A stretch of DNA of 64,000 nucleotides from an uncultured Gemmatimonadales bacterium (GCA_963817575.1 CAWFOY010000003.1:1680-65679), one strand, 5' to 3'. Numbered from the stretch's first letter, positions 5,132 to 44,561 are shown. Numbers and translations are program-made. Notes: generated from the letters alone by a model not told the origin.

Positions 5132-5451
5132 TAGCTGGTCTCCGTCAGAGGGTGAACGTCAGGATTGCCGCAGGGGAAAGCACCTCACTGCGGCCTCAAG
5201 ATAGTGACTTTTCCCTCTGGCAACAATAGGAAAACGCCCATTTTCCCTCGGAAATGCCCCGTGCGGGACCGACCGGGCGCCCCGCAGGGCCGACCGGGCC
5301 GTCCGGGATACCGTCATTTCTCAGAGGGAAACGGCTCAGCACCGGCGGTCCGGGGCAGCCCCCACGTCCTCGGCGCGCGGTTGAAACCTGCGACCGTTTC
5401 CAGAGGTCAGGTTATCATCCAGTCACCTCGTCAATCCGGGAATCGTGTCCA

Positions 5452-6687
5452 ATGCGCCTCATCCTGCTCTCCGCGCTCCTGGCCGCCGTGCTGGCCGGCA
5501 GCGCTGCCGGCCAGCACGAATCGCCGGCCTCGACCTGCGCCCCCGATGACGCAGGCCTCCAGCTTCCCTCGGGATTCTGCGGGATTCCCTTCGCAACGGG
5601 ACTTGGCCGGGTGCGACACCTGGCCGTCGCCGCGAACGGCGATGTGTTTGTTGCCACGCGCGGGGATTCGGGTGGCGTGATATCTCTGCGTGACGCCGAT
5701 GGCGATGGACGCGCCGAAACGGTGCATCGATTCGGCCCCGGGGGTGGCACGGGGATCGCGCTTTCGCAGGATGCGCTCTACTTCGCATTGAACGACCGCG
5801 TGGTGCGGTGGACGTGGGCCCCGGGGCAACTGGAGCCGGCCGGTGAGCCGGTGACCATCGTCGGGGACCTGCCGACCGCCGGCAATCACGGCGCAAAGTC
5901 GATTGCGCTGGGCCAGGACGGCGCGCTGTACCTCGGCGTCGGGTCCGCCTCGAATAGCTGCCAGGTGGAGAATCGCGTGGACCGTTCCCCGGGGCAGGAC
6001 CCGTGTCCGGAGCTTGCGACCCGGGCCGGGATCTGGCGGTTCGACGCCGCGAAGTCAGGCCAGCGCCAGGGGGACGGGGTGCGCTTCGCCACCGGCCTCA
6101 GGAATCCGACCGCAATCGCGATCCAACCGGCCGGCGGGGCGCTTTATGCGGCGCCTTTCGGCAGGGACCAGCTGAGCGACAACTGGGGATACTCGGACTC
6201 GCTCAACGCGGAACTCCCGTCAGAGGAGTTCGTGGCCGTTGCCAACGGCGATGACTTCGGATGGCCCTACTGCTACAATGATCATCTCCAACGCCGGAAG
6301 GTGTTGGCGCCGGAGTACGGCGGCGACGGCAAGACGGTAGGGCGATGCGCGAAGGCCAAGCGGCCGGCGATCGGATTCCCGGGGCACTGGGCGCCGATGG
6401 CGATCGCCTTCCAGCCGTCGGAGGCCTTCGGCAAGGACTATCTGGGCGGCGCGTTCGTCGCGTTCCACGGCTCGTGGAACCGCGCGCCGCTGCCGCAGGC
6501 CGGCTTCCGGATCGCGTTCGTGCCGTTCCGGGACGGGAAGCCGACTGGGGAGTACTCCACGTTTGCCGCACGCCGGGGTAATCCCCAGGGTCTCCGGGCG
6601 TCCGGCGTGGCGGTCGGCCCGGACGGATCGCTGTACATTTCGGACGAAAACGCGGGTACCATTACGCGCGTCGTGCGCCGGCCCTGA
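5452..6687 (+). CDS. PQQ-dependent sugar (glucose/sorbosone) dehydrogenase-like beta-propeller, secreted
   Basis: The track ORF starts at 5254. The signal peptide MRLILLSALLAAVLAGSAAGQ starts at ATG 5452 in the same frame. The C-terminal region ..GFPGHWAPMAIAF..AFHGSWNRAP..GVAVGPDGSLYISDENAGTITRV is typical of the sorbosone/glucose dehydrogenase family. Confidence 0.7.
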   Translation: MRLILLSALLAAVLAGSAAGQHESPASTCAPDDAGLQLPSGFCGIPFATGLGRVRHLAVAANGDVFVATRGDSGGVISLRDADGDGRAETVHRFGPGGGTGIALSQDALYFALNDRVVRWTWAPGQLEPAGEPVTIVGDLPTAGNHGAKSIALGQDGALYLGVGSASNSCQVENRVDRSPGQDPCPELATRAGIWRFDAAKSGQRQGDGVRFATGLRNPTAIAIQPAGGALYAAPFGRDQLSDNWGYSDSLNAELPSEEFVAVANGDDFGWPYCYNDHLQRRKVLAPEYGGDGKTVGRCAKAKRPAIGFPGHWAPMAIAFQPSEAFGKDYLGGAFVAFHGSWNRAPLPQAGFRIAFVPFRDGKPTGEYSTFAARRGNPQGLRASGVAVGPDGSLYISDENAGTITRVVRRP

Positions 6688-6716
6688 GGCCGCGCGCCAC
6701 TCATCAAGGAGGTCCG

Positions 6717-7277
6717 ATGCAACACTGGAAACGGGGGGCGTTGGTGCTGGCCCTCCTCGCGCCCGCGGTTGCCGGGAGTGCTGGGGCTCAGGCACCGCTC
6801 GACGTCGGTGCCGTCGCCCCCGATTTCGCACTGATCGGTGCGACGAAGGACGGCGTGCTCCGGGACTCGGTTCGCCTGAGCGATTTCCGGGGCGAGACCG
6901 TGGTGCTGGCCTTTTTCTTCAAGGCACGGACCAAGGGCTGAACCATTCAAATGAACGCGTACCGTGATCAGTACGCGACGGTCTTCAACAGCGGTGAAAA
7001 GGTGGTGCTTCTCGCGGTCAGCGCGGACACCCCCGAGGCGTTGCATTCGTGGGCGAGCGATTCGGGATATCCGTTCCGGTTCCTGAGCGATCCCGGCGGC
7101 AGGGTCGGGCAGGCGTACGGCGCCTTCAATGCGAGCTATACCCTCGACAATCGGAACTTGTTCGTGGTTGGGCCGGATGGGAAAATTGCCTTTCGGGCGA
7201 TCCCGTTTCGGGAGGTCGATCCCCAGGCCTACAAGGACCTCGACGCGGCGATCGATGGCCTCGCCGCCAAGCGCTGA
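6717..7277 (+). CDS. Secreted AhpC/TSA (Bcp-like) peroxiredoxin with in-frame TGA at the peroxidatic residue; probable selenocysteine-containing 1-Sec Prx
   Basis: Track ORFs 6717..6941 and 6951..7277 share one frame and are separated by TGA 6939..6941. The joined sequence ..FRGETVVLAFFFKARTKG-U-TIQMNAYRDQY..VVLLAVSAD..NRNLFVVGPDGKI.. is a Prx fold with the TGA at the T-x-x-C position. The protein has no other Cys. There is a strong SD (AAGGAGG) before ATG 6717 and none before ATG 6951. Confidence 0.7.
6956..6977 (+). promoter_or_regulatory. SECIS-like hairpin downstream of the in-frame UGA
   Basis: A perfect 7-bp stem CGCGTAC (6956..6962) / GTACGCG (6971..6977) with an 8-nt loop CGUGAUCA. 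The stem starts 14 nt after the UGA and the loop 21 nt after it. G/GU lies near the 5' side of the loop, as in bacterial SECIS models. Confidence 0.5.
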
Positions 7278-7317: not shown

Positions 7318-7839
7318 ATGCTTGCCCTGCTCAAGCTCCTGCAGGCGCTCGTCAAGGCGCTCCATTCCGAGGGCACGCCCGGTCAGGTCGCAGCCGGGAT
7401 CGCCCTCGGTGCCGCGCTTGGACTCACCCCGCTCATCAATGTCCACAACGCGCTGATCTTCGCGCTCATCCTCGTCCTCAACGTCTCCTTCGGCGGTGCG
7501 ATGCTGGGGTGGCTGTTCTTCACCCCGTTCGGCTTCATGCTCGATCCGCTGTTCGATGTGATCGGCAGGAAGCTCCTCCTCGGGACGCCGGCGCTCACTC
7601 CCCTCTGGACGGCCTGGTACAACACCCCCGGCGTCCCCTACACCAATTTCAACAATTCGGTGGTGCTGGGGAGCTTCCTGGTGTGGCTGATCCTGGCGCT
7701 TCCCATTTTCATCCTCGCCCGAATCGGCGTGGAAAGGTACCGCGCGACCCTCGGCGAGCGGGTCAGGCAGTCCAAGTTTTACAAGGCGGTGACGGCCTCC
7801 AAGGCGTACAACGTGTACCGCCTGTTCCGGCCGGAGTGA
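7318..7839 (+). CDS. Small polytopic membrane protein, TIGR03546/DUF2062-like
   Basis: 173 aa. The sequence ..TPGQVAAGIALGAALGLTPLINVHNALIFALILVLN.. plus further TM segments fits that family. It lies immediately upstream (3-nt gap) of a large anchored protein, the arrangement I recall for the TIGR03546/TIGR03545 pair. The family name is from memory and was not searched. Confidence 0.5.
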   Translation: MLALLKLLQALVKALHSEGTPGQVAAGIALGAALGLTPLINVHNALIFALILVLNVSFGGAMLGWLFFTPFGFMLDPLFDVIGRKLLLGTPALTPLWTAWYNTPGVPYTNFNNSVVLGSFLVWLILALPIFILARIGVERYRATLGERVRQSKFYKAVTASKAYNVYRLFRPE

Positions 7840-7842
7840 GCG

Positions 7843-9669
7843 ATGCGTGTCCGCCTGGTGCGCTGGTCCGGCCTGCTGCCCCTCCTGGGCTTTCTCGTGC
7901 TGATCGGAATCGGCTGGCTCCTCCTCGGTGACTTCATCGTGGAGCAGACCAGCGAGGAAGCGTCCACGGAGCTCCTCGGCACACAGGTAGATGTCGCCTC
8001 GCTGCACATTCGCGAGACCCAATCCGCCGTGGATATCGGCGGGCTCGAGATCGCGGATCCGTTCAACCCGATGCGCAATCTCATCGAGGCGCGCGGCATC
8101 CGGCTCGCGCTCGAGCCCGAGCCGCTGCTCGAGAAGAAGCTGGTCATCCGCCGCCTCACCCTCGAGGACCTCCGGTTTGGCACCGCCCGCCGCAAGGCCG
8201 CGCGGCCTGTCAGGGGCGGGGGCTTCGCACCGCAAACGCTCCGCGCGCTCAACGAATGGCGGGAGCAGTTCGACGTGCCGCTGCTCTCCCTGACACCGAT
8301 CGACACGATCAAGGCGATCGTACTCGACCCTTCCCAGCTATCCACAGTGTCCGCCGCGGAGGCGCTGCGCACCCGGGCGGATTCCACGAAACAGGCGCTC
8401 GAGGCGCAATGGGCCGCGATCAACGTCTCGGGGATCGTGGATAGTGCAAACGCCATCGCAAAGCGGCTCGAGGGGGCCACGACGACCCAGCTCGGCCTCG
8501 ACGGGACGCGCAGGGCGGTGGCCGATGTGCAGCACGCGATCGCGCTGGTGGATGGCACCGAGAAGCAGGTTCGGGGACTCTCGGACGGCGTGCAGCTGGG
8601 CGTTCGCGGCCTCGCCGAGGGCGTGGAATCGGTGAACGAGGCCCGGCAACGTGACTACGCGTTCGTGCGGGGGCTCATGAAACTGCCATCGCTCGAGGGC
8701 CCGGCGATCGGCGGCGCCTTCTTCGGGAAGGTGAGCATCGATCGCTTCCAGCGCGCGGTGTACTGGGCCGAGCTGGCGCAGAAATACCTGCCGCCCGGCT
8801 TGAAGCCGCAGGCCCAGGCCGGACCGAAACGGCTGCGCATGGACGGCACGACGGTTCGCTTCCCCCTCGAGAAGCATTGGCCGCCCTTCCTCCTCCAGGC
8901 CGGCGACCTGAGCTTCAGCCTTGCCAGCGGCGTGGCAAAGGGCTCGTATGCGCTCGAGGTGCGCAACGTCACTACGACACCGGCCCTCCTCGGCCACCCC
9001 ACCACGTTCACGGCGTCCCGTTCCGCTCCGGGAACGTCGTTGCCGTTGATCGACGTGCGGGGCTTGCTCGATCATACCCGCGCGACGCCACGCGACCAGG
9101 TGCGCGCGGCACTGGCCCGGGTCCCTCTCCCGGCGTTCGACCTGCCGGGCCTCCCCTTCCGGGTCGAGCCGGGGCAGGGCAGCATGCGCTTCGACTTCAC
9201 GCTCGTAGGGCGTGACGTCGACGCCCGCTGGAACATCCGGTCTACGGAGGTCCGCTGGCCTGTGGATTCCTCCCGCGCCCGCACGCTGACCGATATGGAG
9301 TCCCTCGTCGGCCGGGTGCTGCAGGGGCTTGGCACGCTCGAGGTCGAGGCACGGCTCATCGGGCCGCTGGCGCATCCGAGGCTGTCGGTGCACTCCAATC
9401 TCGACGATGCCGTCGCAGCCCGCCTGCGCGGCCTGCTCGGGGAGGCGGTCGCCGCCGGCGAGCGGATGGCCCGTGCCAAGGTGGACAGTGTTGTGAATGC
9501 CCAGATTCAGCCGGTGCTCGCGCAAGTCGGCACGATCACCGCCGAGGCGGAGCGCAGGGTTCCCGCGGCCCAGGGGCAGCTGGGACAGGCGAGGGCGGTC
9601 CTCGAGGATCGGCTCAGGACCCTCACGGCCGGCCTGGGCGGCCAGCTCAAGCTGCCTGGCCTGCCCTAG
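7843..9669 (+). CDS. N-terminally anchored large protein, TIGR03545 / AsmA-DUF748-like
   Basis: 608 aa with a single N-terminal TM segment (LLPLLGFLVLIGIGWLLLG). The rest is soluble and Ala/Leu/Arg-rich. It is paired with the preceding small membrane protein. Confidence 0.45.
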   Translation: MRVRLVRWSGLLPLLGFLVLIGIGWLLLGDFIVEQTSEEASTELLGTQVDVASLHIRETQSAVDIGGLEIADPFNPMRNLIEARGIRLALEPEPLLEKKLVIRRLTLEDLRFGTARRKAARPVRGGGFAPQTLRALNEWREQFDVPLLSLTPIDTIKAIVLDPSQLSTVSAAEALRTRADSTKQALEAQWAAINVSGIVDSANAIAKRLEGATTTQLGLDGTRRAVADVQHAIALVDGTEKQVRGLSDGVQLGVRGLAEGVESVNEARQRDYAFVRGLMKLPSLEGPAIGGAFFGKVSIDRFQRAVYWAELAQKYLPPGLKPQAQAGPKRLRMDGTTVRFPLEKHWPPFLLQAGDLSFSLASGVAKGSYALEVRNVTTTPALLGHPTTFTASRSAPGTSLPLIDVRGLLDHTRATPRDQVRAALARVPLPAFDLPGLPFRVEPGQGSMRFDFTLVGRDVDARWNIRSTEVRWPVDSSRARTLTDMESLVGRVLQGLGTLEVEARLIGPLAHPRLSVHSNLDDAVAARLRGLLGEAVAAGERMARAKVDSVVNAQIQPVLAQVGTITAEAERRVPAAQGQLGQARAVLEDRLRTLTAGLGGQLKLPGLP

Positions 9670-9737: not shown

Positions 9738-10844
9738 ATGCGAATCGGAGTACCGGCGGAAACGGCGGCGCAAGAGCGCCGTGTGGCCCTCATCCCGGAC
9801 GCGGTCACGAAACTCAAGGCGGCCGGCTGTGACATCCTCGTGCAGCGCGGCGCGGGTGACTCCGCATTCTTTCCCGATGCGGCGTACGCGGCCGCCGGCG
9901 CGACCCTGGTTGGCGCGTCCGAAGCGCTGGGCGCTGACCTCGTCCTCAAGGTGCAGCGGCCCTCTCTCGAGGAGGCGGCCCAGCTCCGCGAAGGCGCGGC
10001 GCTCATCGCACTCCTCTCGCCCGCGGCAGGTGGCGACCTCTTCGACCTGCTGGCGCGCCGCCGGGTGACGGCGTTCGCCATGGAGCTGGTGCCGCGGACC
10101 ACCAAGGCCCAATCGATGGACGTGCTCTCGTCTCAAGCCACTATCGCCGGCTACAAGGCGGTGCTGCTCGGCGCCGCGGCGATGGGCCGCATCCTGCCGA
10201 TGCTGACGACCGCAGCCGGCACCCTGCCTCCGGCCCGGGTCTTCGTCGTGGGCGCGGGAGTCGCCGGCCTCCAGGCCATCGCGACCGCGCGCCGCCTCGG
10301 TGGCCTCGTTTCGGCGTTCGATGTGCGGTCCGTCGTGAAGGAGCAGGTCCAGAGCCTCGGCGCCAGCTTCGTGGAGCTCGCCGCCGTCGAGGGTGAGGGA
10401 GCGGGTGGTTACGCGAAGGAGCTGGCAGAGGAGCAACAGCGACGGGTGCTCGAAGCGGTCGGGGCGCACGCCGCCGGCCAGGACCTGGTGATTACCACGG
10501 CACAGATTCCCGGCCGGCCCGCGCCGCGCCTGCTCTCGGGCGAGGCCGTCCGCGCCATGAAGCCCGGCTCCGTGATCGTGGATCTTGCGGCTGAGTCCGG
10601 CGGCAACTGTGAGCTCACCCGCGCCGGGGAGCCGGTCATCGTCAATGGGGTCACTGTGCTAGGCCCGATCAACCTCCCGGCGAGCGTGCCGCAGCACGCG
10701 AGCCAGATGTACAGCCGGAACGTCCTGACGTTCGTCCAGTACGCCCTCAAGGACGGCGCGCTCAACGTGGACCTGGCCGACGCAATTACCGGCCCGATGT
10801 GCGTCACGCACGCGGGCGAACTCCGCACCCAGAAGGCGGCCTGA
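9738..10844 (+). CDS. pntAA: NAD(P) transhydrogenase subunit alpha part 1 (dI, NAD(H)-binding)
   Basis: 368 aa. MRIGVPAETAAQERRVALIPDAVTKLKAAGCDILVQRGAG.. and the Rossmann motif VFVVGAGVAGLQAIATARRLG are classic PntAA / alanine dehydrogenase-like features. Confidence 0.92.
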   Translation: MRIGVPAETAAQERRVALIPDAVTKLKAAGCDILVQRGAGDSAFFPDAAYAAAGATLVGASEALGADLVLKVQRPSLEEAAQLREGAALIALLSPAAGGDLFDLLARRRVTAFAMELVPRTTKAQSMDVLSSQATIAGYKAVLLGAAAMGRILPMLTTAAGTLPPARVFVVGAGVAGLQAIATARRLGGLVSAFDVRSVVKEQVQSLGASFVELAAVEGEGAGGYAKELAEEQQRRVLEAVGAHAAGQDLVITTAQIPGRPAPRLLSGEAVRAMKPGSVIVDLAAESGGNCELTRAGEPVIVNGVTVLGPINLPASVPQHASQMYSRNVLTFVQYALKDGALNVDLADAITGPMCVTHAGELRTQKAA

Positions 10845-10846
10845 GC

Positions 10847-11137
10847 ATGGAAGCCCTGATTTTGAGCATCGTCATCTTCACACTCGCCACGTTCCTCGGC
10901 GTCGAGCTGATCAACCGGGTTCCGACCACGCTGCATACGCCCCTCATGTCGGGCGCCAATGCGATCAGCGGCATCACCATTGTGGGCGCGCTCGTCGTGG
11001 CCGGTGGCGGGCACGGCTGGATCTCATGGGGCTTCGGCTTCGGGGCGGTGGTGCTCGCCATGATGAATGTCGTCGGAGGGTACGCAGTGACCGACCGCAT
11101 GCTGCAGATGTTCACGAAGAAGCCGGAGGCGAAGTAA
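10847..11137 (+). CDS. pntAB: NAD(P) transhydrogenase subunit alpha part 2 (membrane, dII)
   Basis: The start is taken at ATG 10847 (MEALILSIVIFTLATFLGVELINRVPTTLHTPLMSGANAISGITIVGA..VTDRMLQMF). The track ORF start at 10799 would overlap pntAA. Confidence 0.9.
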   Translation: MEALILSIVIFTLATFLGVELINRVPTTLHTPLMSGANAISGITIVGALVVAGGGHGWISWGFGFGAVVLAMMNVVGGYAVTDRMLQMFTKKPEAK

Positions 11138-12522
11138 TGCCATCCGGTCTCACCGAACTGCTCTACCTCGTTGCTGCCGTCCTGTTCATCATCGGCCTCA
11201 AGCGGCTCTCCAGCCCGCTCACGGCCCGGCGCGGGAATCTCGTGTCCGGCGTCGGGATGCTCATCGCCATCGCTGTCACCCTCCTGAACCGCCACATCCT
11301 GTCCTTCGAGGTGATCCTGGCCGGCGTGGTGGTCGGCTCCGCGCTTGGCTGGTGGATGGCGCGCACGGTCCACATGACCGCGATGCCCCAGATGGTCGCG
11401 CTCCTCAACGGATTCGGCGGAGGCGCGTCGCTCTTCGTCGGGGGGGCGGAGTTCCTCAAGGTAGAACTCGCCGGCGGAACCGCGCCCATGGACGTGGCCA
11501 TCACAACGCAATTGAGCCTGCTCATCGGCGCCGTCACCCTGACCGGGAGCATCATCGCGTGGGCCAAGCTGCAGGAGGTCATGACCGGCCGCCCGATCAC
11601 GTTCCCGATGCAGAAGGTCGTGAATGCAGTCTGGTTCCTGGCGATCGCTGCACTCGCCATCTACCAGATTCTCACGCCGGAACAGCTCCTGTGGCCCTTC
11701 TACCTCGTGATCGGCCTCTCGCTCGTGCTGGGTGTATTGCTGGTGATTCCGATCGGCGGCGCCGACATGCCGGTCGTCATCTCGCTCCTCAACTCCTATT
11801 CCGGCATTGCCGCGGCGATGACCGGGTTCGTCATACACAACGACGTGCTGATCATTGCGGGCGCGCTGGTCGGCTCGTCCGGAATCATCCTCAGCCAGAT
11901 CATGTGCAAGGCGATGAATCGCTCGTTGACCAACGTCCTGTTCGGAGCGTTCGGCGGCGGCACGGCCTCGGGCAAGTCCGCCGCCGGCCTGACCGTGCGC
12001 CAGGTGACGGTCGAGGACGCCGCCATGCAGATCGCCTACGCCCAGTTCATGGTGGTGGTCCCTGGCTACGGGCTCGCGGTGGCCCAGGCCCAGCATGCGG
12101 TGCGGGAGCTCGCCGACCTGGTCGAGCGGCGGGGTGGGGAAGTGAAGTACGCGATCCACCCCGTGGCGGGGCGCATGCCCGGGCACATGAACGTGCTGCT
12201 CGCCGAGGCCAACGTGCCATATGAGAAGCTCTGCGAGATGGACCAGATCAACGATGAGTTCCAGCGGGCCGACGTGGCGCTGGTGGTCGGCGCCAATGAT
12301 GTCGTCAACCCCGCGGCACGGACCGATGCCGGCAGCCCCATCTACGGCATGCCAATTCTCAATGCCGATCAGGCGAAGAGCACGATCGTTCTGAAGCGGA
12401 GCATGAACGCGGGCTTCGCCGGGATCGAGAACGAGCTGTTCTACAGCCCGAAGACCGCGATGCTGTTCGGCGACGCCAAGCAGACGCTGACGAGGCTGGT
12501 GGCGGAGGTGAAGGTCGTTTAG
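11137..12522 (+). CDS. pntB: NAD(P) transhydrogenase subunit beta (dII+dIII)
   Basis: ATG 11137 overlaps the TAA of pntAB (TAATG). MPSGLTELLYLVAAVLFIIGLKRLSSPLTARRGN.. and the C-terminal dIII VVPGYGLAVAQAQH..KYAIHPVAGRMPGHMNVLLAEANVPY..GANDVVNPAA are diagnostic. Confidence 0.92.
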   Translation: MPSGLTELLYLVAAVLFIIGLKRLSSPLTARRGNLVSGVGMLIAIAVTLLNRHILSFEVILAGVVVGSALGWWMARTVHMTAMPQMVALLNGFGGGASLFVGGAEFLKVELAGGTAPMDVAITTQLSLLIGAVTLTGSIIAWAKLQEVMTGRPITFPMQKVVNAVWFLAIAALAIYQILTPEQLLWPFYLVIGLSLVLGVLLVIPIGGADMPVVISLLNSYSGIAAAMTGFVIHNDVLIIAGALVGSSGIILSQIMCKAMNRSLTNVLFGAFGGGTASGKSAAGLTVRQVTVEDAAMQIAYAQFMVVVPGYGLAVAQAQHAVRELADLVERRGGEVKYAIHPVAGRMPGHMNVLLAEANVPYEKLCEMDQINDEFQRADVALVVGANDVVNPAARTDAGSPIYGMPILNADQAKSTIVLKRSMNAGFAGIENELFYSPKTAMLFGDAKQTLTRLVAEVKVV

Positions 12523-12538
12523 GCCTGGGAGGCCGCAG

Positions 12539-12850
12539 ATGACGTACCTGGGTTTGATCGAGGTCTACGTCTTCATCCTGGCGGGATTCGTGGGGTTCAT
12601 GGTCATCACCCGCGTCCCGCCCCTGCTCCACACCCCGCTCATGTCCGCCACCAACGCGATCTCCGCCATCTCCCTGGTGGGGTCGTTGGTGGCGGCCGGG
12701 GCCGACCGGAACCAGGTCAGCACCATCCTCGGCTTCGTCGCCGTCATTTCGGCCACCATCAACGCGGTCGGCGGATTCATCATCACCGACCGGATGCTGA
12801 AGATGTTCCGCCGGAAGCCGGGCCCGGGGGCGGGAGACCAGTCATCATGA
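12539..12850 (+). CDS. pntAB: Second copy of NAD(P) transhydrogenase alpha part 2 (paralogue)
   Basis: 103 aa. ..RVPPLLHTPLMSATNAISAISLVGS..ITDRMLKMF.. is clearly paralogous to 10847..11137. A GGGAGG SD lies upstream. Confidence 0.88.
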   Translation: MTYLGLIEVYVFILAGFVGFMVITRVPPLLHTPLMSATNAISAISLVGSLVAAGADRNQVSTILGFVAVISATINAVGGFIITDRMLKMFRRKPGPGAGDQSS

Positions 12851-14241
12851 CGCCCCGTGAGCTGCTGGTCCAGGCGACCTACCTCACAGCGTCGATTCTT
12901 TTCATCCTCGGGCTCCGCAGCCTGACTCGCGCCGACAGCGCGCGGCGGGGCATGCAGCAGGCTGCGCTCGGGATGGTGATCGCCGTCTGCGGGACCCTCC
13001 TCCACCACGAGATCGTGTCCTACCGCTGGATCCTCGCGGGCCTGGTGATCGGGTCGATCATCGGATACCCGCTGGGAACAATGGTGCCGATGACCGCGAT
13101 GCCGCAGCGGATCGCGATTTCGCACGTGTTCGGCGCACTGGCCGCCACCCTCGTCGGGATCGCGGAGTATTACACCCACCTCCGCGACGGGGTCGCGATT
13201 TCGTCCCCGCTGATGGCGGCCCTGGGATTCGAGGTCGTGTTCGGTGCGCTGACCGTGAGTGGAAGCTTCATGGCGTTCAGCAAGCTCCAGGAGCTCATCA
13301 GCGGCCGGCCACACACCTATCGCGGCCAGAACGTGATGAACATCTCCCTGTTCGTCGCGACCCTCGGGGTATTCGGCTACCTCCTGGTGAACCCCGGTGA
13401 CGCCCGGCTGTTCTACCTGATGGTCGGCATGGCATTCCTGTTCGGATTCCTGCTCGTGCTTCCCATCGGCGGAGCGGACATGCCGGTCGTCATCTCACTC
13501 ATGAATTCCTACGCGGGACTCGCGTCCTCCGCCACGGGATTCGCGATCGGCAACAACGTGCTGATCATCGCGGGCGCGCTGGACGGTGCCTCCGGCTTCA
13601 TCCTGTCCATGGTGATGAGCAAGGCGATGAATCGCTCCTTCGGCAACGTGCTGTTCGGCGCGTTCGGAAGCGCGGCCGCCGGCGGGTCGGCTCAAAGCGT
13701 GGAGGGGCTCTCGGTCAAGGCGATCTCGGTCGAGGACGCGGCCATGCAGCTGGCGTATGCCCGCATGGTTATCGTCGTGCCCGGGTACGGGCTGGCCGTG
13801 GCGCAGGCCCAGCACGTCGTGCGGGAGCTGGCCGATCTGATCGAGAAGCGCGGTGGGGAGGTGAAGTACGCAATCCACCCGGTCGCGGGCCGAATGCCGG
13901 GGCACATGAACGTCCTGCTCGCCGAGGCGAATGTTCCGTACGACCGGCTGGTGGAAATGGACGAGATCAACAGCCAGTTCCCGCAGGCCGATGTCGCGCT
14001 GGTGGTGGGGGCGAACGATGTCGTGAATCCCGCCGCACGGAACGACGCTTCGAGCCCGATCTATGGCATGCCGATCCTGAACGTCGATCAGGCGAAGGGG
14101 ATCATCGTGCTCAAGCGGAGCATGAATCCCGGCTTTGCCGGCATCGAGAACCAGCTGTTCTACAACGAAAAGACCTCGATGCTTTTCGGGGATGCGAAGC
14201 AGTCGCTGACGAAGCTCGTGGCGGAGGTCAAAGGACTTTAG
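12847..14241 (+). CDS. pntB: Second copy of NAD(P) transhydrogenase subunit beta (paralogue)
   Basis: 464 aa with an ATGA overlap onto the preceding gene. Its dIII region is nearly identical in motif content to the first pntB (VVPGYGLAVAQAQHVVRELADLIEKRGGEVKYAIHPVAGRMPGHMNVLLAEANVPY..). Confidence 0.9.
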   Translation: MTPRELLVQATYLTASILFILGLRSLTRADSARRGMQQAALGMVIAVCGTLLHHEIVSYRWILAGLVIGSIIGYPLGTMVPMTAMPQRIAISHVFGALAATLVGIAEYYTHLRDGVAISSPLMAALGFEVVFGALTVSGSFMAFSKLQELISGRPHTYRGQNVMNISLFVATLGVFGYLLVNPGDARLFYLMVGMAFLFGFLLVLPIGGADMPVVISLMNSYAGLASSATGFAIGNNVLIIAGALDGASGFILSMVMSKAMNRSFGNVLFGAFGSAAAGGSAQSVEGLSVKAISVEDAAMQLAYARMVIVVPGYGLAVAQAQHVVRELADLIEKRGGEVKYAIHPVAGRMPGHMNVLLAEANVPYDRLVEMDEINSQFPQADVALVVGANDVVNPAARNDASSPIYGMPILNVDQAKGIIVLKRSMNPGFAGIENQLFYNEKTSMLFGDAKQSLTKLVAEVKGL

Positions 14242-42705: not shown

Positions 42706-44561
42706 ATGAACGGCTGGGGCCTCGGCTTCTTCCGCATCAACCCGGAAGGGCATGTCACCGTCCACGCCGACGGCAATCCAAAGCGGGGGCTGGATCTCTA
42801 CCAGCTCGCGATGGACCTGCATGCCCAGGGTGTCGGCCTGCCGCTGCTCCTCCGGTTCTCGGACATCTTGCGTGCACGCATCAACAACCTCGCCGGGGTT
42901 TTTCGGGAGGCGATCGGGGAGTTCGGCTACACCGGCGCGTATACGACGGTCTACCCGATCAAGGTCAACCAACAGCGGCATGTGGTGCAGGAGATCGTGG
43001 AGTTCGGCGCCGATCACGACGTGGGGCTGGAGTGCGGGAGCAAGCCGGAGCTTCAGGCCGTGCTGGGCCTGCACGAAAGCACGAAGCACGTCATCGTCTG
43101 CAATGGATACAAGGACGAGGAGTTCATGCGGCTGGCCCTCATGGGCCAGAAGCTCGGGCACCAGGTGTTCCTCGTGATGGAGCAGCTGCACGAGCTCGAT
43201 GTCCTGCTCGCGGTGGCCGAGGACATGGGCGTGGAACCGACGATCGGGGTGCGGATCAAGCTGGCTACGGAAGGCTCGGGCCGGTGGGCCAAGAGCGGGG
43301 GGAAAAGTCGAAGTTCGGGCTGAACGCGGTGGAGCTGATGCGGCTGCTCGACAAGCTCGAACGGCTCGGCCGGAAGGACATGCTCCGGCTGGTTCACTTT
43401 CATCTTGGGAGCCAGATCACCGATATCCGCCACGTCAAAGCGGCGCTCGAGGAGATCGGCCGGTATTACGCGGAGCTTCGCGGGATGGGCTTCGGCCTGA
43501 CTCACGTGGACGTCGGCGGCGGGCTGGGGGTGGATTACGACGGCTCGCGCTCGACCCGGCCGGCGAGTGTGAACTACACCATGCGGGAGTACGCCAACGA
43601 CGTCGTCTACACGATCGGCAACGTGTGTCGCGAACACGACCTGGCGATGCCGCACCTGATCTCGGAATCCGGCCGCGCCCTCACGGCGCACCACTCACTG
43701 CTGCTCGTGAACGTGATCGATGTCGAGAGCCAGGTCGAGCCGGTGCCGCCGACACTCGGGGCGGATCCGCATCCCCTCCTGCGTGAAATGGCGGAGAACC
43801 TCGAATCGCTCACCCCGGACCGGGTGGACGAGGCCTTCCACGACGCACTCTTTGCCAAGGAGCGGACTAACGAGTACTTCGCCAGCGGTGCCTTCACGCT
43901 CCGCGACAAGGCGGACGCGGAGCAACTCTACCTGTGCACCCTGACGGCGATCCAGGAACTCCTTGGGGAGGACCGGGCCGGCAATCCCGAGATCATGGCC
44001 CATATCGACGCGACGCTCGTGGACCGGTATTTCTGCAACTTCTCCCTCTTTCAGTCGCTCCCCGACAACTGGGCGATCGACCAGCTCTTTCCGATCATGC
44101 CGATCCACCGGCTCAACGAGCGTCCGTCGCGCCGGGGCACGATGCAGGACGTGACCTGCGACTCGGACGGCGTGATTGACCGCTTCGCAGGCGGCCGGAA
44201 GGGCAAGCCCTCCCTCGAGCTGCATCCGTATCTCGAGAACGAGCCCTACATTCTCGGCATCTTCCTGACGGGAGCGTACCAGGAAATCCTGGGGGACCTG
44301 CACAACCTCTTCGGCGACACGAACGCCGTCCACGTGCGGATGACCGAGCAGGGGTACGAAGTGACCGACCTGGTGCACGGGGACACCGTGACCGAGGTTC
44401 TGAACTACGTGCAGTTCCACGCGACGGACCTGCTGGCCACCTGGCGCCGCAAGGTCGGGGCGGCCAAGGACCTGAGCCGTCAGGAGGCGAACATGTTCAT
44501 CGCCGAGTACGTGGCCGGGCTGGAGGGGTACACGTACCTCGAGGGTCAGGTCCAGGAGTAA
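42706..44561 (+). pseudogene. speA: Biosynthetic arginine decarboxylase, interrupted by an apparent 1-nt deletion in a G6 run (pseudogene or assembly error)
   Basis: Track ORFs 42706..43323 (frame 1) and 43032..44561 (frame 0) together give a full SpeA: ..GWGLGFFRINPEGHV..YPIKVNQQRHVV..GSGRWAKSGG | EKSKFGLNAVEL..HFHLGSQI..GGGLGVDYDG... The join is at GGGGGGAAAAG (43297..43307). The conserved ..WTVKDAEKLY.. lies upstream of ATG 42706 with no canonical start. Confidence 0.8.

What the first reader, a model, noticed from the sequence alone, without database searches (positions are those of the whole stretch)
6717..7277. Peroxiredoxin with in-frame TGA exactly at the catalytic Cys position plus a SECIS-like hairpin: probable selenoprotein (1-Sec Prx)
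ORFs 6717..6941 and 6951..7277 are in the same frame and separated only by TGA (6939..6941) and three sense codons. Joined, they give a 186-residue signal-peptide-bearing AhpC/TSA/Bcp-type protein. The TGA sits where the family has its peroxidatic Cys (..VVLAFFFKARTKG-[TGA]-TIQMNAYRD.., the T-x-x-C motif).

The rest of the protein contains no cysteine at all. A truncated or split product would therefore have no redox centre. The first ATG has a strong SD (AAGGAGG), while the ATG at 6951 has none.

A perfect 7-bp stem starts 14 nt after the UGA (CGCGTAC 6956..6962 / GTACGCG 6971..6977) with an 8-nt loop CGUGAUCA. The UGA-to-loop distance (21 nt) and the G/GU near the loop start fit the geometry used for bacterial SECIS elements. 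Sec-containing Prx-like proteins are known in bacteria. That such a gene is present in this genome, and would be mis-split by ordinary gene callers, is the point of interest.
Basis: partly seen in the sequence, partly recalled or inferred. Interest (0 to 1): 0.75.

Follow-up and report, generated by a model that had tools for sequence, protein, structure and literature searches.

The report
Exported selenocysteine peroxiredoxin of Gemmatimonadales
The apparent stop codon inside this peroxiredoxin gene almost certainly encodes selenocysteine. The same TGA and the same downstream RNA hairpin recur in more than 150 distinct relatives from soil Gemmatimonadales, so this is a real gene of a known kind that public annotation routinely splits in two.

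Summary

- **The gene.** Window 6717..7277 is one 186-codon AhpC/TSA gene. Its only redox residue is encoded by TGA 6939-6941, which aligns with the peroxidatic Cys of M. tuberculosis AhpE and of about 100 Cys-type homologues.
- **Conservation of the TGA.** 163 related loci carry TGA at this codon (156 distinct 150-nt segments). They include all 80 species-representative genomes returned by the genome scan, nearly all labelled Gemmatimonadales.
- **The hairpin.** The hairpin 14 nt downstream (6956-6977) is invariant at synonymous sites in the TGA forms: GCG TAC CGT GAT CAG TAC. The same sites vary in Cys forms. Its closing pair covaries (C:G 66, U:A 60, G:C 3, A:U 1, U:G 1), with at least 7 independent C:G/U:A switches.
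- **The protein.** It is an AhpE-like 1-Sec peroxiredoxin with a signal peptide, so it is probably periplasmic.
- **Likely reductant.** In 72% of Sec loci a TlpA-like thioredoxin and CcdA lie directly downstream. The window itself does not have them.
- **New detail.** Sec forms always have Phe or Tyr where peroxiredoxins have the motif Pro.
- **Untested.** selA, selB, selC and selD were not in the 64 kb window or in any fetched locus, and the whole genome could not be searched.

This is a new member of a known kind and of moderate interest.

The parts
6706..6712 (+). Shine-Dalgarno AAGGAGG, 4 nt before the start codon
   Evidence: Read directly from the sequence.
6717..7277 (+). Complete selenoprotein gene of 186 codons plus the stop TGA 7275-7277. 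It encodes an AhpE-like 1-Sec peroxiredoxin.
   Evidence: One frame. Pfam AhpC-TSA 93.6 bits. AlphaFold2 model with pLDDT 89.5, whose best PDB match is M. tuberculosis AhpE.
6717..6788 (+). Predicted Sec-type signal peptide, residues 1-24: K5/R6 n-region, hydrophobic core, then A-G-A before Q25
   Evidence: Judged by eye from the sequence; no signal-peptide predictor was available. pLDDT is about 50 over residues 1-20. Orthologues have equivalent N-termini ending in A-x-A/Q. Periplasmic TlpA and CcdA genes lie next to the gene in most orthologous loci.
6918..6920 (+). Phe68 (TTC), at the position of the Pro in the peroxiredoxin PxxxTxxC motif
   Evidence: This position is F (100) or Y (55) in all 155 Sec forms. 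It is P in 102 of 105 Cys forms.
6930..6932 (+). Thr72, the active-site Thr of the TxxU motif
   Evidence: Aligned with the Thr of TGIC in AhpE. Thr in 97% of Sec forms.
6939..6941 (+). UGA read as selenocysteine 75, the peroxidatic residue
   Evidence: Aligns with the peroxidatic Cys of AhpE and with Cys in 104 of 120 homologues. TGA in 163 related loci.
6942..6955 (+). 14-nt spacer between the UGA and the hairpin (ACC AUU CAA AUG AA). The Gln codon is the otherwise rare CAA.
   Evidence: CAA in 132 of 156 Sec forms, against CAG in all 9 Cys forms. Alignment A3.
6956..6977 (+). SECIS-type hairpin: 7-bp stem (6956-6962 / 6971-6977) and 8-nt loop CGUGAUCA (6963-6970)
   Evidence: Six stem pairs are invariant in 134 distinct sequences. 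The closing pair is CG 66 / UA 60 / GC 3 / AU 1 / UG 1. RNAalifold predicts the same helix. Synonymous sites are frozen in Sec forms only. Hairpin energy is -9.4 kcal/mol.
7152..7154 (+). Arg146, the conserved active-site Arg of peroxiredoxins
   Evidence: Invariant in alignments A1 and A2. Aligned with the Arg in the 'nrgtf' segment of AhpE.

Best explanation
Window 6717-7277 is a single gene for an exported 1-Sec peroxiredoxin of the AhpE-like type.

**Translation (inferred).** During translation, SelB carrying Sec-tRNA(Sec) binds the 22-nt hairpin that begins 14 nt after UGA 6939-6941. It recognises the stem and the loop, including the near-invariant G-U at loop positions 2-3. Selenocysteine is inserted instead of termination.

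**Export (inferred).** The full-length protein is exported through its N-terminal signal peptide.

**Catalysis (inferred).** In the periplasm the selenolate of Sec75, held by Thr72 and Arg146, reduces a peroxide and becomes a selenenic acid. There is no second Cys or Sec, so an external thiol protein must regenerate it. The most likely route is a TlpA-like WCPxC thioredoxin fed by the membrane electron carrier CcdA. These two genes lie directly downstream in most orthologous loci. In this genome they must be encoded elsewhere.

**Shown here:** the gene structure, the family and fold, UGA at the catalytic column, conservation of the UGA, the RNA-level constraint and covariation, and the gene neighbourhoods.

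**Not shown:** Sec insertion itself, export, peroxidase activity and the reductant.
For: **Family and catalytic position**
- Pfam AhpC-TSA at 1.1e-26.
- The UGA aligns with the peroxidatic Cys of AhpE and with Cys in 104 of 120 homologues.
- The AlphaFold2 model has pLDDT 89.5. Its best PDB matches are M. tuberculosis AhpE, a 1-Cys peroxiredoxin, at 33-36% identity and TM-score 0.81-0.87 normalised by target length.

**Conservation of the TGA**
- TGA is present in all 80 best genome loci, each from a different GTDB species.
- TGA is present in 78 of the 80 best metagenome loci, even though the query was a Cys-form alignment.
- In total there are 163 TGA loci with 156 distinct 150-nt segments. 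Their nucleotide p-distance reaches 0.42, median 0.28.

**Coding constraint on both sides**
- Upstream codons keep their amino acids while synonymous sites vary, for example Val GTC 102 / GTG 45 and Ala GCG 86 / GCC 67.

**RNA-level constraint specific to TGA forms**
- In Sec forms: Ala GCG 156/156, Tyr TAC 156/156, Arg CGT 154/156, Asp GAT 152/156, Gln CAG 156/156.
- In the 9 distinct Cys forms the same sites vary: GCG/GCC, TAC/TAT, CGC/CGG/CGT, GAC/GAT, CAG/CAA.

**Covariation**
- The closing pair is paired in 131 of 134 sequences, in five pair types.
- There are at least 7 independent C:G/U:A switches on a neighbour-joining tree.

**No reassignment of TGA**
- TGA ends 29 of 47 genes in the window, including this one.

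**Context**
- A TlpA-like gene (WCPxC motif) and ccdA lie convergently downstream in 81 of 112 Sec loci that have enough flank.
- Sec-containing peroxiredoxins with a TxxU motif are an experimentally established bacterial selenoprotein family (PMC13188914, PMC5029168).
Against: - selA, selB, selD and tRNA-Sec were not found in the 64 kb window.
- They were also absent from the fetched loci. tblastn with E. coli SelA, SelB and SelD covered the 85 loci held at that point, and ARAGORN scanned 60 of them. They are unlikely to be linked to this gene, and the whole genome could not be searched.
- The hairpin alone is not statistically unusual in this one GC-rich sequence.
- About half of the Cys forms can also form most of the stem, because the codons for A-Y...Y-A are nearly self-complementary. 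The stem by itself is therefore not diagnostic. The frozen loop and synonymous sites are.
- No Rfam family matches.
- One low-coverage contig (L004, 1.6x) has TTA instead of TGA.
- This window lacks the tlpA/ccdA neighbours, so the reductant is inferred from other genomes.
Confidence: 0.92

Rival explanations
1. The gene is decaying or is a sequencing artefact. A nonsense mutation or base-call error turned TGC into TGA, and no full-length protein is made.
For: The same window contains a probable indel artefact or frameshift in speA, next to a G6A4 run. The assembly is therefore not error-free. Gene callers split the gene.
Against: TGA is present in 163 loci from independent assemblies and species. 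Amino-acid conservation continues on both sides of it, with free synonymous change. A pseudogene would not keep Thr72, Arg146 and a frozen hairpin across sequences that differ by up to 42% at the nucleotide level.
Confidence: 0.01
2. The UGA is read through by something other than selenocysteine, for example near-cognate Trp or Cys insertion stimulated by the hairpin. Alternatively, two separate polypeptides (1-74 and 79-186) are made and assemble.
For: The Sec machinery was not observed in the sequence available. ATG 6951 exists, and Met79 is conserved.
Against: - Met79 is also conserved in the unsplit Cys forms, so it is an internal residue.
- No SD-like purine run is visible in the 15 nt before 6951.
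- Trp, or no residue at all, at the peroxidatic position would give an enzyme with no redox centre, because the protein has no Cys.
- The geometry matches what is described for bacterial SECIS elements: a hairpin starting 14 nt after the UGA, 21 nt to the loop, and G-U early in the loop. This comparison rests on my own knowledge of E. coli fdhF and the bSECISearch model.
- Hairpin-stimulated non-Sec read-through of UGA is not an established bacterial mechanism.
Confidence: 0.04
3. The conserved inverted repeat is not a SECIS. It is a by-product of the conserved peptide AYRDQYA, or a DNA-level protein-binding site.
For: The arms are encoded by Ala-Tyr and Tyr-Ala codons. With GC-rich codon choice these are almost self-complementary. 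Several Cys forms (L166, L170, the second gene of L173) also form the 6-bp core.
Against: - Cys forms vary at the synonymous sites (Arg CGC/CGG, Asp GAC, Ala GCC, Tyr TAT). TGA forms are frozen on rare codons: CGT 154/156, against 3/102 at another Arg codon of the same genes; GAT 152/156; CAA 132/156.
- The closing pair lies in third positions of two codons and covaries.
- The constraint is tied to the presence of TGA.
Confidence: 0.03

Closest known systems
Sec-containing peroxiredoxin (Prx, PF00578, TxxU), first shown as PrxU of Eubacterium acidaminophilum (Sohling et al. 2001, cited in PMC13188914). Listed in 78 organisms in PMC5029168.
   Same: AhpC/TSA fold. Selenocysteine replaces the peroxidatic Cys in the T-x-x-U motif. 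The UGA is followed by a hairpin within the coding sequence.
   Different: It is not the PrxU equivalog: NCBIfam NF040737 scores 62 bits against a cut-off of 270. It is shorter (186 aa; the PrxU model has 233 positions), AhpE-like rather than AhpC-like, carries a signal peptide, and has F/Y instead of the Pro of the 'PxxxTxxU' motif described for known Sec-Prx (PMC13188914). It occurs in uncultured Gemmatimonadales, found mostly in JGI and ENA metagenomes (many appear to be soil, judged from record names), rather than in anaerobic Firmicutes.
AhpE of Mycobacterium tuberculosis (Rv2238c), a 1-Cys peroxiredoxin (PDB 1xxu, 1xvw, 4x0x)
   Same: It is the best sequence match (5.6e-16) and the best fold match (33-36% identity, rmsd 2.4-2.7 A). 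The catalytic Thr, peroxidatic position and Arg align. Neither protein has a resolving Cys.
   Different: AhpE is cytoplasmic, uses Cys, keeps the motif Pro, and is reduced by mycothiol/mycoredoxin. This protein has Sec and Phe68, is predicted to be exported, and is probably reduced by a TlpA/CcdA route.
Cys-type orthologues in Gemmatimonadota ('peroxiredoxin Q/BCP' in JGI annotation), for example P0004, P0034, P0043
   Same: 50-63% identity. They have the same length, a signal peptide and a single redox residue. The same ccdA/tlpA neighbours are found in 3 of 6 protein look-ups (5 of 11 loci).
   Different: They have TGC instead of TGA, Pro instead of F/Y in the motif, and no frozen synonymous sites in the hairpin region.
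Prx-like thiol:disulfide oxidoreductase selenoproteins (UxxC / UxxU; PMC13188914 table)
   Same: Thioredoxin-fold, PF00578-related selenoproteins.
   Different: Those carry a UxxC or UxxU redox pair. Here the residues after U are T-I-Q and the protein has no Cys at all.

Membership tests
Peroxiredoxin (AhpC/TSA, PF00578) | Domain match above the curated threshold | tested here: met
   93.6 bits against a cut-off of 26, covering model positions 1-123 of 124.
Peroxiredoxin (AhpC/TSA, PF00578) | Thioredoxin-type Prx fold | tested here: met
   AlphaFold2 pLDDT 89.5 and pTM 0.82. The 50 best PDB matches listed (of 747 with E <= 0.001) are all peroxiredoxins, with AhpE best.
Peroxiredoxin (AhpC/TSA, PF00578) | Peroxidatic Cys (or Sec) three residues after the motif Thr (TxxC) | tested here: met
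   T72-K-G-U75 aligns with T-G-I-C of AhpE. The codon is UGA.
Peroxiredoxin (AhpC/TSA, PF00578) | Pro of the PxxxTxxC motif | tested here: not met
   Phe68 in the window. F or Y in all 155 Sec forms; P in 102 of 105 Cys forms.
Peroxiredoxin (AhpC/TSA, PF00578) | Conserved active-site Arg | tested here: met
   Arg146 is invariant in alignments A1 and A2 and aligns with the AhpE Arg.
Peroxiredoxin (AhpC/TSA, PF00578) | Peroxide-reducing activity | not testable with these tools
   Needs an enzyme assay.
Bacterial selenoprotein (SelB/SECIS-dependent UGA recoding) | In-frame UGA aligned with Cys in homologues | tested here: met
   Cys in 104 of 120 protein homologues, and TGC in all 14 Cys-form gene copies found in 12 loci.
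Bacterial selenoprotein (SelB/SECIS-dependent UGA recoding) | UGA conserved among orthologues, with coding constraint on both sides | tested here: met
   163 loci with 156 distinct sequences. Synonymous variation occurs upstream and downstream.
Bacterial selenoprotein (SelB/SECIS-dependent UGA recoding) | Stem-loop shortly after the UGA, conserved as RNA | tested here: met
   A 7-bp stem starting 14 nt after the UGA. Six pairs and the loop are nearly invariant at synonymous sites. The closing pair covaries with at least 7 switches.
Bacterial selenoprotein (SelB/SECIS-dependent UGA recoding) | selA, selB, selD and tRNA-Sec in the same genome | not testable with these tools
   Absent from the 64 kb window. 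Absent from the fetched loci: tblastn over the 85 loci held then, ARAGORN over 60.
Bacterial selenoprotein (SelB/SECIS-dependent UGA recoding) | Selenium in the protein | not testable with these tools
   Needs 75Se labelling or mass spectrometry.
PrxU equivalog (NCBIfam NF040737) | Score above the equivalog cut-off | tested here: not met
   62.3 bits against a cut-off of 270.
AhpE-type 1-Cys peroxiredoxin subfamily | Closest in sequence and fold to AhpE, with no resolving Cys | tested here: met
   AhpE is the best hit in both searches. There is no Cys in the protein. No formal subfamily classification (active-site profile) was run.
Prx-like thiol:disulfide oxidoreductase selenoproteins | UxxC / CxxU / UxxU redox pair | tested here: not met
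   The sequence is G-U-T-I-Q, with no Cys or second UGA.

The most novel reading that the evidence does not exclude
This would be a lineage-wide, previously undescribed selenoprotein clade. Uncultured Gemmatimonadales, seen mostly in what appear to be soil metagenomes, would depend on selenium for a periplasmic peroxide defence. Its active site would be re-tuned for selenium, with the otherwise universal motif Pro obligatorily replaced by Phe or Tyr whenever Cys becomes Sec; this has happened at least 4 times. It would be served by an unusually rigid, order-wide SECIS hairpin and a dedicated CcdA-TlpA electron supply.
Probability: 0.4. Interest if true: 0.6.

Novelty: new member of a known kind. 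Interest (0 to 1): 0.42.

Why it matters
- **Annotation.** ENA, JGI and NCBI records split this gene into a 73-75 aa ORF without a domain and a 108-111 aa 'peroxiredoxin'. Some JGI calls read it through as Trp with the wrong code. At least 160 public loci are affected.
- **Biology.** The gene indicates selenocysteine use across an order of bacteria that recurs in the metagenome scan. The full-text searches found no paper reporting selenoproteins in this phylum. This links selenium availability in their habitat to extracytoplasmic peroxide defence.
- **Enzymology.** The strict coupling of Sec with F/Y, and of Cys with Pro, at the PxxxTxxC position is a natural experiment on what selenium changes in a peroxiredoxin active site.
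- **RNA.** A 20-nt SECIS core invariant across about 40% nucleotide divergence is a clean model for SelB recognition. It is also a simple search pattern for finding these genes.

Tried and rejected
- **Rfam.** The gathering-threshold search of the window and a permissive search of 6880-7060 found no SECIS family, only chance hits at E of 2.5 and above.
- **tRNA-Sec.** ARAGORN found none in the window or in 60 loci.
- **Sec machinery in the window.** Pfam annotation of 48 predicted proteins of the window found no SelA, SelB or SelD.
- **Sec machinery in the loci.** tblastn with E. coli SelA, SelB and SelD against the 85 loci held at that point gave only one GTPase-domain hit. The sequences were written from memory; SelB was later verified as identical to PDB 5lzb.
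- **Source genome.** The exact 108-aa product is not on record in the collection, so the source genome could not be identified.
- **Literature.** Four full-text searches on Gemmatimonadota and selenocysteine found nothing specific. Gemmatimonas aurantiaca T-27 appears only in the full species list of PMC4561486, which is uninformative.
- **Other selenoproteins.** No other in-frame TGA candidate lies in the window. The three other same-frame TGA junctions are ordinary gene ends.
- **'Leu' and 'Trp' homologues.** The Trp forms are TGA translated with code 4. One Leu form is a real TTA in a contig with 1.6x coverage. The other, P0001, could not be traced.
- **A further SelB search.** I considered a whole-database protein search with SelB. 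I rejected it because the ranking would return only relatives of the query organism.

Full report
**1. Observation**

- ATG 6717 follows AAGGAGG (6706-6712).
- The frame runs to TGA 6939-6941, continues through ACC ATT CAA and ATG 6951, and ends at TGA 7275-7277.
- The 186-residue product contains no cysteine.
- CGCGTAC (6956-6962) pairs with GTACGCG (6971-6977) around the loop CGTGATCA. The stem begins 14 nt after the TGA.

Taken alone, the hairpin proves little. The 60-nt fold is no more stable than shuffled sequence (z = -0.08). In this 68% GC window, 35 of 1460 TGA trinucleotides (2.4%) have a perfect stem of at least 7 bp starting 8-20 nt downstream.

**2. Protein family**

- The joined protein matches Pfam AhpC-TSA at 1.1e-26, over the full length of the model.
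- Its best solved relatives are the M. tuberculosis 1-Cys peroxiredoxin AhpE. In that alignment T72-K-G-[UGA] lies over T-G-I-C, and Arg146 lies over the catalytic Arg.
- An AlphaFold2 model (pLDDT 89.5) again finds AhpE first, at 33-36% identity and rmsd about 2.5 A.
- NCBIfam's best model is the selenoprotein PrxU, but at 62 bits against a cut-off of 270. The protein is therefore not a PrxU orthologue.

**3. Relatives: protein search**

A search of the protein collection gave two classes.
- About 100 full-length Cys forms at 50-63% identity. They have one Cys, at the aligned column, in the motif FFP[KR]ARTxGCT.
- A set of 108-111 aa 'peroxiredoxins' at 69-91% identity that begin exactly at Met79.

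The contigs that encode the short proteins show the same split as the window. A 73-75 aa ORF is followed by TGA, three codons and then the 108-aa ORF.

Three 'Trp' forms are TGA translated with code 4 by the gene caller. One 'Leu' form is a TTA in a contig with 1.6x coverage, and its hairpin is intact.

**4. Relatives: DNA scans**

- The scan of one genome per GTDB species found 527 relatives. The best 80, from 80 different species, all carry TGA at this codon. They are nearly all Gemmatimonadales MAGs, with two Longimicrobiales and one labelled Acidobacteria.
- The metagenome scan used a Cys-form alignment as query, yet 78 of its best 80 loci carry TGA.
- In total there are 163 TGA loci with 156 distinct 150-nt segments. 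Their p-distance reaches 0.42, median 0.28.

**5. RNA-level evidence**

Upstream and downstream of the element, amino acids are conserved while synonymous sites vary freely. Both halves are therefore translated in this frame.

| Codon after UGA | Sec forms (156 distinct) | Cys forms (9 distinct) |
|---|---|---|
| +3 Gln | CAA 132, CAG 24 | CAG 9 |
| +6 Ala | GCG 156 | GCG and GCC |
| +7 Tyr | TAC 156 | TAC and TAT |
| +8 Arg | CGT 154 | CGC, CGG, CGT (CGT once) |
| +9 Asp | GAT 152 | GAC and GAT |
| +10 Gln | CAG 156 | CAG, CAA (one Lys AAG) |
| +11 Tyr | TAC 156 | TAC 9 |

CGT and CAA are rare elsewhere in the same genes. At another Arg codon, CGT occurs 3 times out of 102.

The closing pair lies in the third positions of two codons. 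In 134 distinct 60-mers it is C:G 66, U:A 60, G:C 3, A:U 1, U:G 1 and unpaired 3. RNAalifold predicts exactly this helix. On a neighbour-joining tree built without the hairpin columns, at least 7 C:G/U:A switches are needed.

One caveat applies. The 6-bp core can also form in about half of the Cys forms, because the codons for Ala-Tyr...Tyr-Ala are nearly self-complementary. The frozen loop and wobble positions are what distinguish the TGA forms.

**6. Genetic code and Sec machinery**

TGA is the commonest ordinary stop in the window: 29 of 47 Pfam-supported genes, including this one. No selA, selB, selD or tRNA-Sec lies in the window or in the fetched loci. The rest of the genome could not be read. 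This defining feature remains untested.

**7. Context and likely mechanism**

The N-terminus looks like a Sec-type signal peptide: K5/R6, a hydrophobic core, then A-G-A before Q25. It is modelled with low confidence, and orthologues have equivalent N-termini.

Of 112 TGA loci with at least 1.9 kb of downstream sequence:
- 81 have a convergent pair directly after the gene: a TlpA-like thioredoxin (WCPxC motif, with its own hydrophobic N-terminus) and CcdA. The same pair lies next to Cys forms in 3 of 6 protein look-ups (5 of 11 loci).
- 18, including the window, have a different arrangement: ABC-F, SWIB, a GSDH-like gene, Prx, then pntA.
- 13 have neither arrangement.

The window has no ccdA or tlpA homologue in its 64 kb at E < 1e-8.

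The best reading is therefore a periplasmic 1-Sec peroxiredoxin. Its selenenic acid would be reduced by a TlpA-like protein that draws electrons through CcdA. The neighbourhood is shown. The chemistry is inferred.

**8. An unexpected detail**

Seven residues before U lies the position of the motif Pro of PxxxTxxC. It is F (100) or Y (55) in all 155 distinct Sec forms, and P in 102 of 105 Cys forms. The rough tree needs at least 4 Sec/Cys switches.

A 2026 review describes known Sec-peroxiredoxins as keeping PxxxTxxU (PMC13188914). The reason for the coupling seen here is unexplained.

**9. Comparison with what is known, and novelty**

Sec-containing peroxiredoxins (TxxU) are an established bacterial selenoprotein family (PMC13188914). 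They were found in 78 organisms in PMC5029168. A 2026 database lists 57,630 bacterial selenoproteins from 16,621 species (PMC13326102), and this clade may already be in it.

The full-text searches returned no paper reporting selenoproteins in Gemmatimonadota.

I file the gene as a new member of a known kind. Its distinctive features are:
- AhpE-like type and predicted export;
- an altered motif residue;
- an order-wide invariant SECIS core;
- linkage to CcdA and TlpA.

**10. Verdict**

Interest is moderate: a specialist would not be surprised by a Sec-peroxiredoxin. The scale of the mis-annotation, the spread of the TGA form across Gemmatimonadales species and metagenomes, and the Sec/Pro coupling are all worth recording.

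Noticed in passing
window 42706-44561: The arginine decarboxylase gene (speA) is split over two overlapping frames. The Pfam domain breaks at about 43300, next to a GGGGGGAAAA run. This is either an assembly indel, typical of long-read data, or a real frameshift.
   Followed up: partly
window 9738-14241: The transhydrogenase locus has one pntA followed by two tandem copies of the small 4TM subunit plus pntB (about 10848-11137 + 11137-12522, and 12539-12850 + 12847-14241). The related locus L001 has a single copy.
   Followed up: partly
window 7318-9669: A TIGR03546/TIGR03545 gene pair of unknown function lies between the Prx gene and pntA. In related genomes the same pair lies 3-8 kb away, and pntA follows Prx directly in several of them.
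   Followed up: partly
L008 10569-11749 and 80 other loci: A convergent TlpA-like thioredoxin (WCPIC) and ccdA lie directly downstream of the Sec-Prx gene in 81 of 112 loci. The window's synteny class lacks this pair.
   Followed up: yes
window 6918-6920 (Phe68) and all related loci: The Pro of the PxxxTxxC motif is always F or Y in Sec forms and almost always P in Cys forms, despite at least 4 Sec/Cys switches. The cause is unknown.
   Followed up: partly
L004 332-334: A low-coverage ENA contig has TTA (Leu) instead of TGA, with an intact hairpin. Its near-twin L176 has TGA. This is probably a read error or a null allele.
   Followed up: partly
L173 3001-4145: One Cys-form genome has two tandem paralogues of this peroxiredoxin, of 197 and 182 aa.
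   Followed up: no
window 5254-6687: The upstream gene is a GSDH/TrAA12-like beta-propeller, with a weak NCBIfam hit to PVC-type haem-binding proteins. It is conserved next to the Sec-Prx gene in the window's synteny class. One JGI protein (P0025, 270 aa) carries both domains.
   Followed up: no
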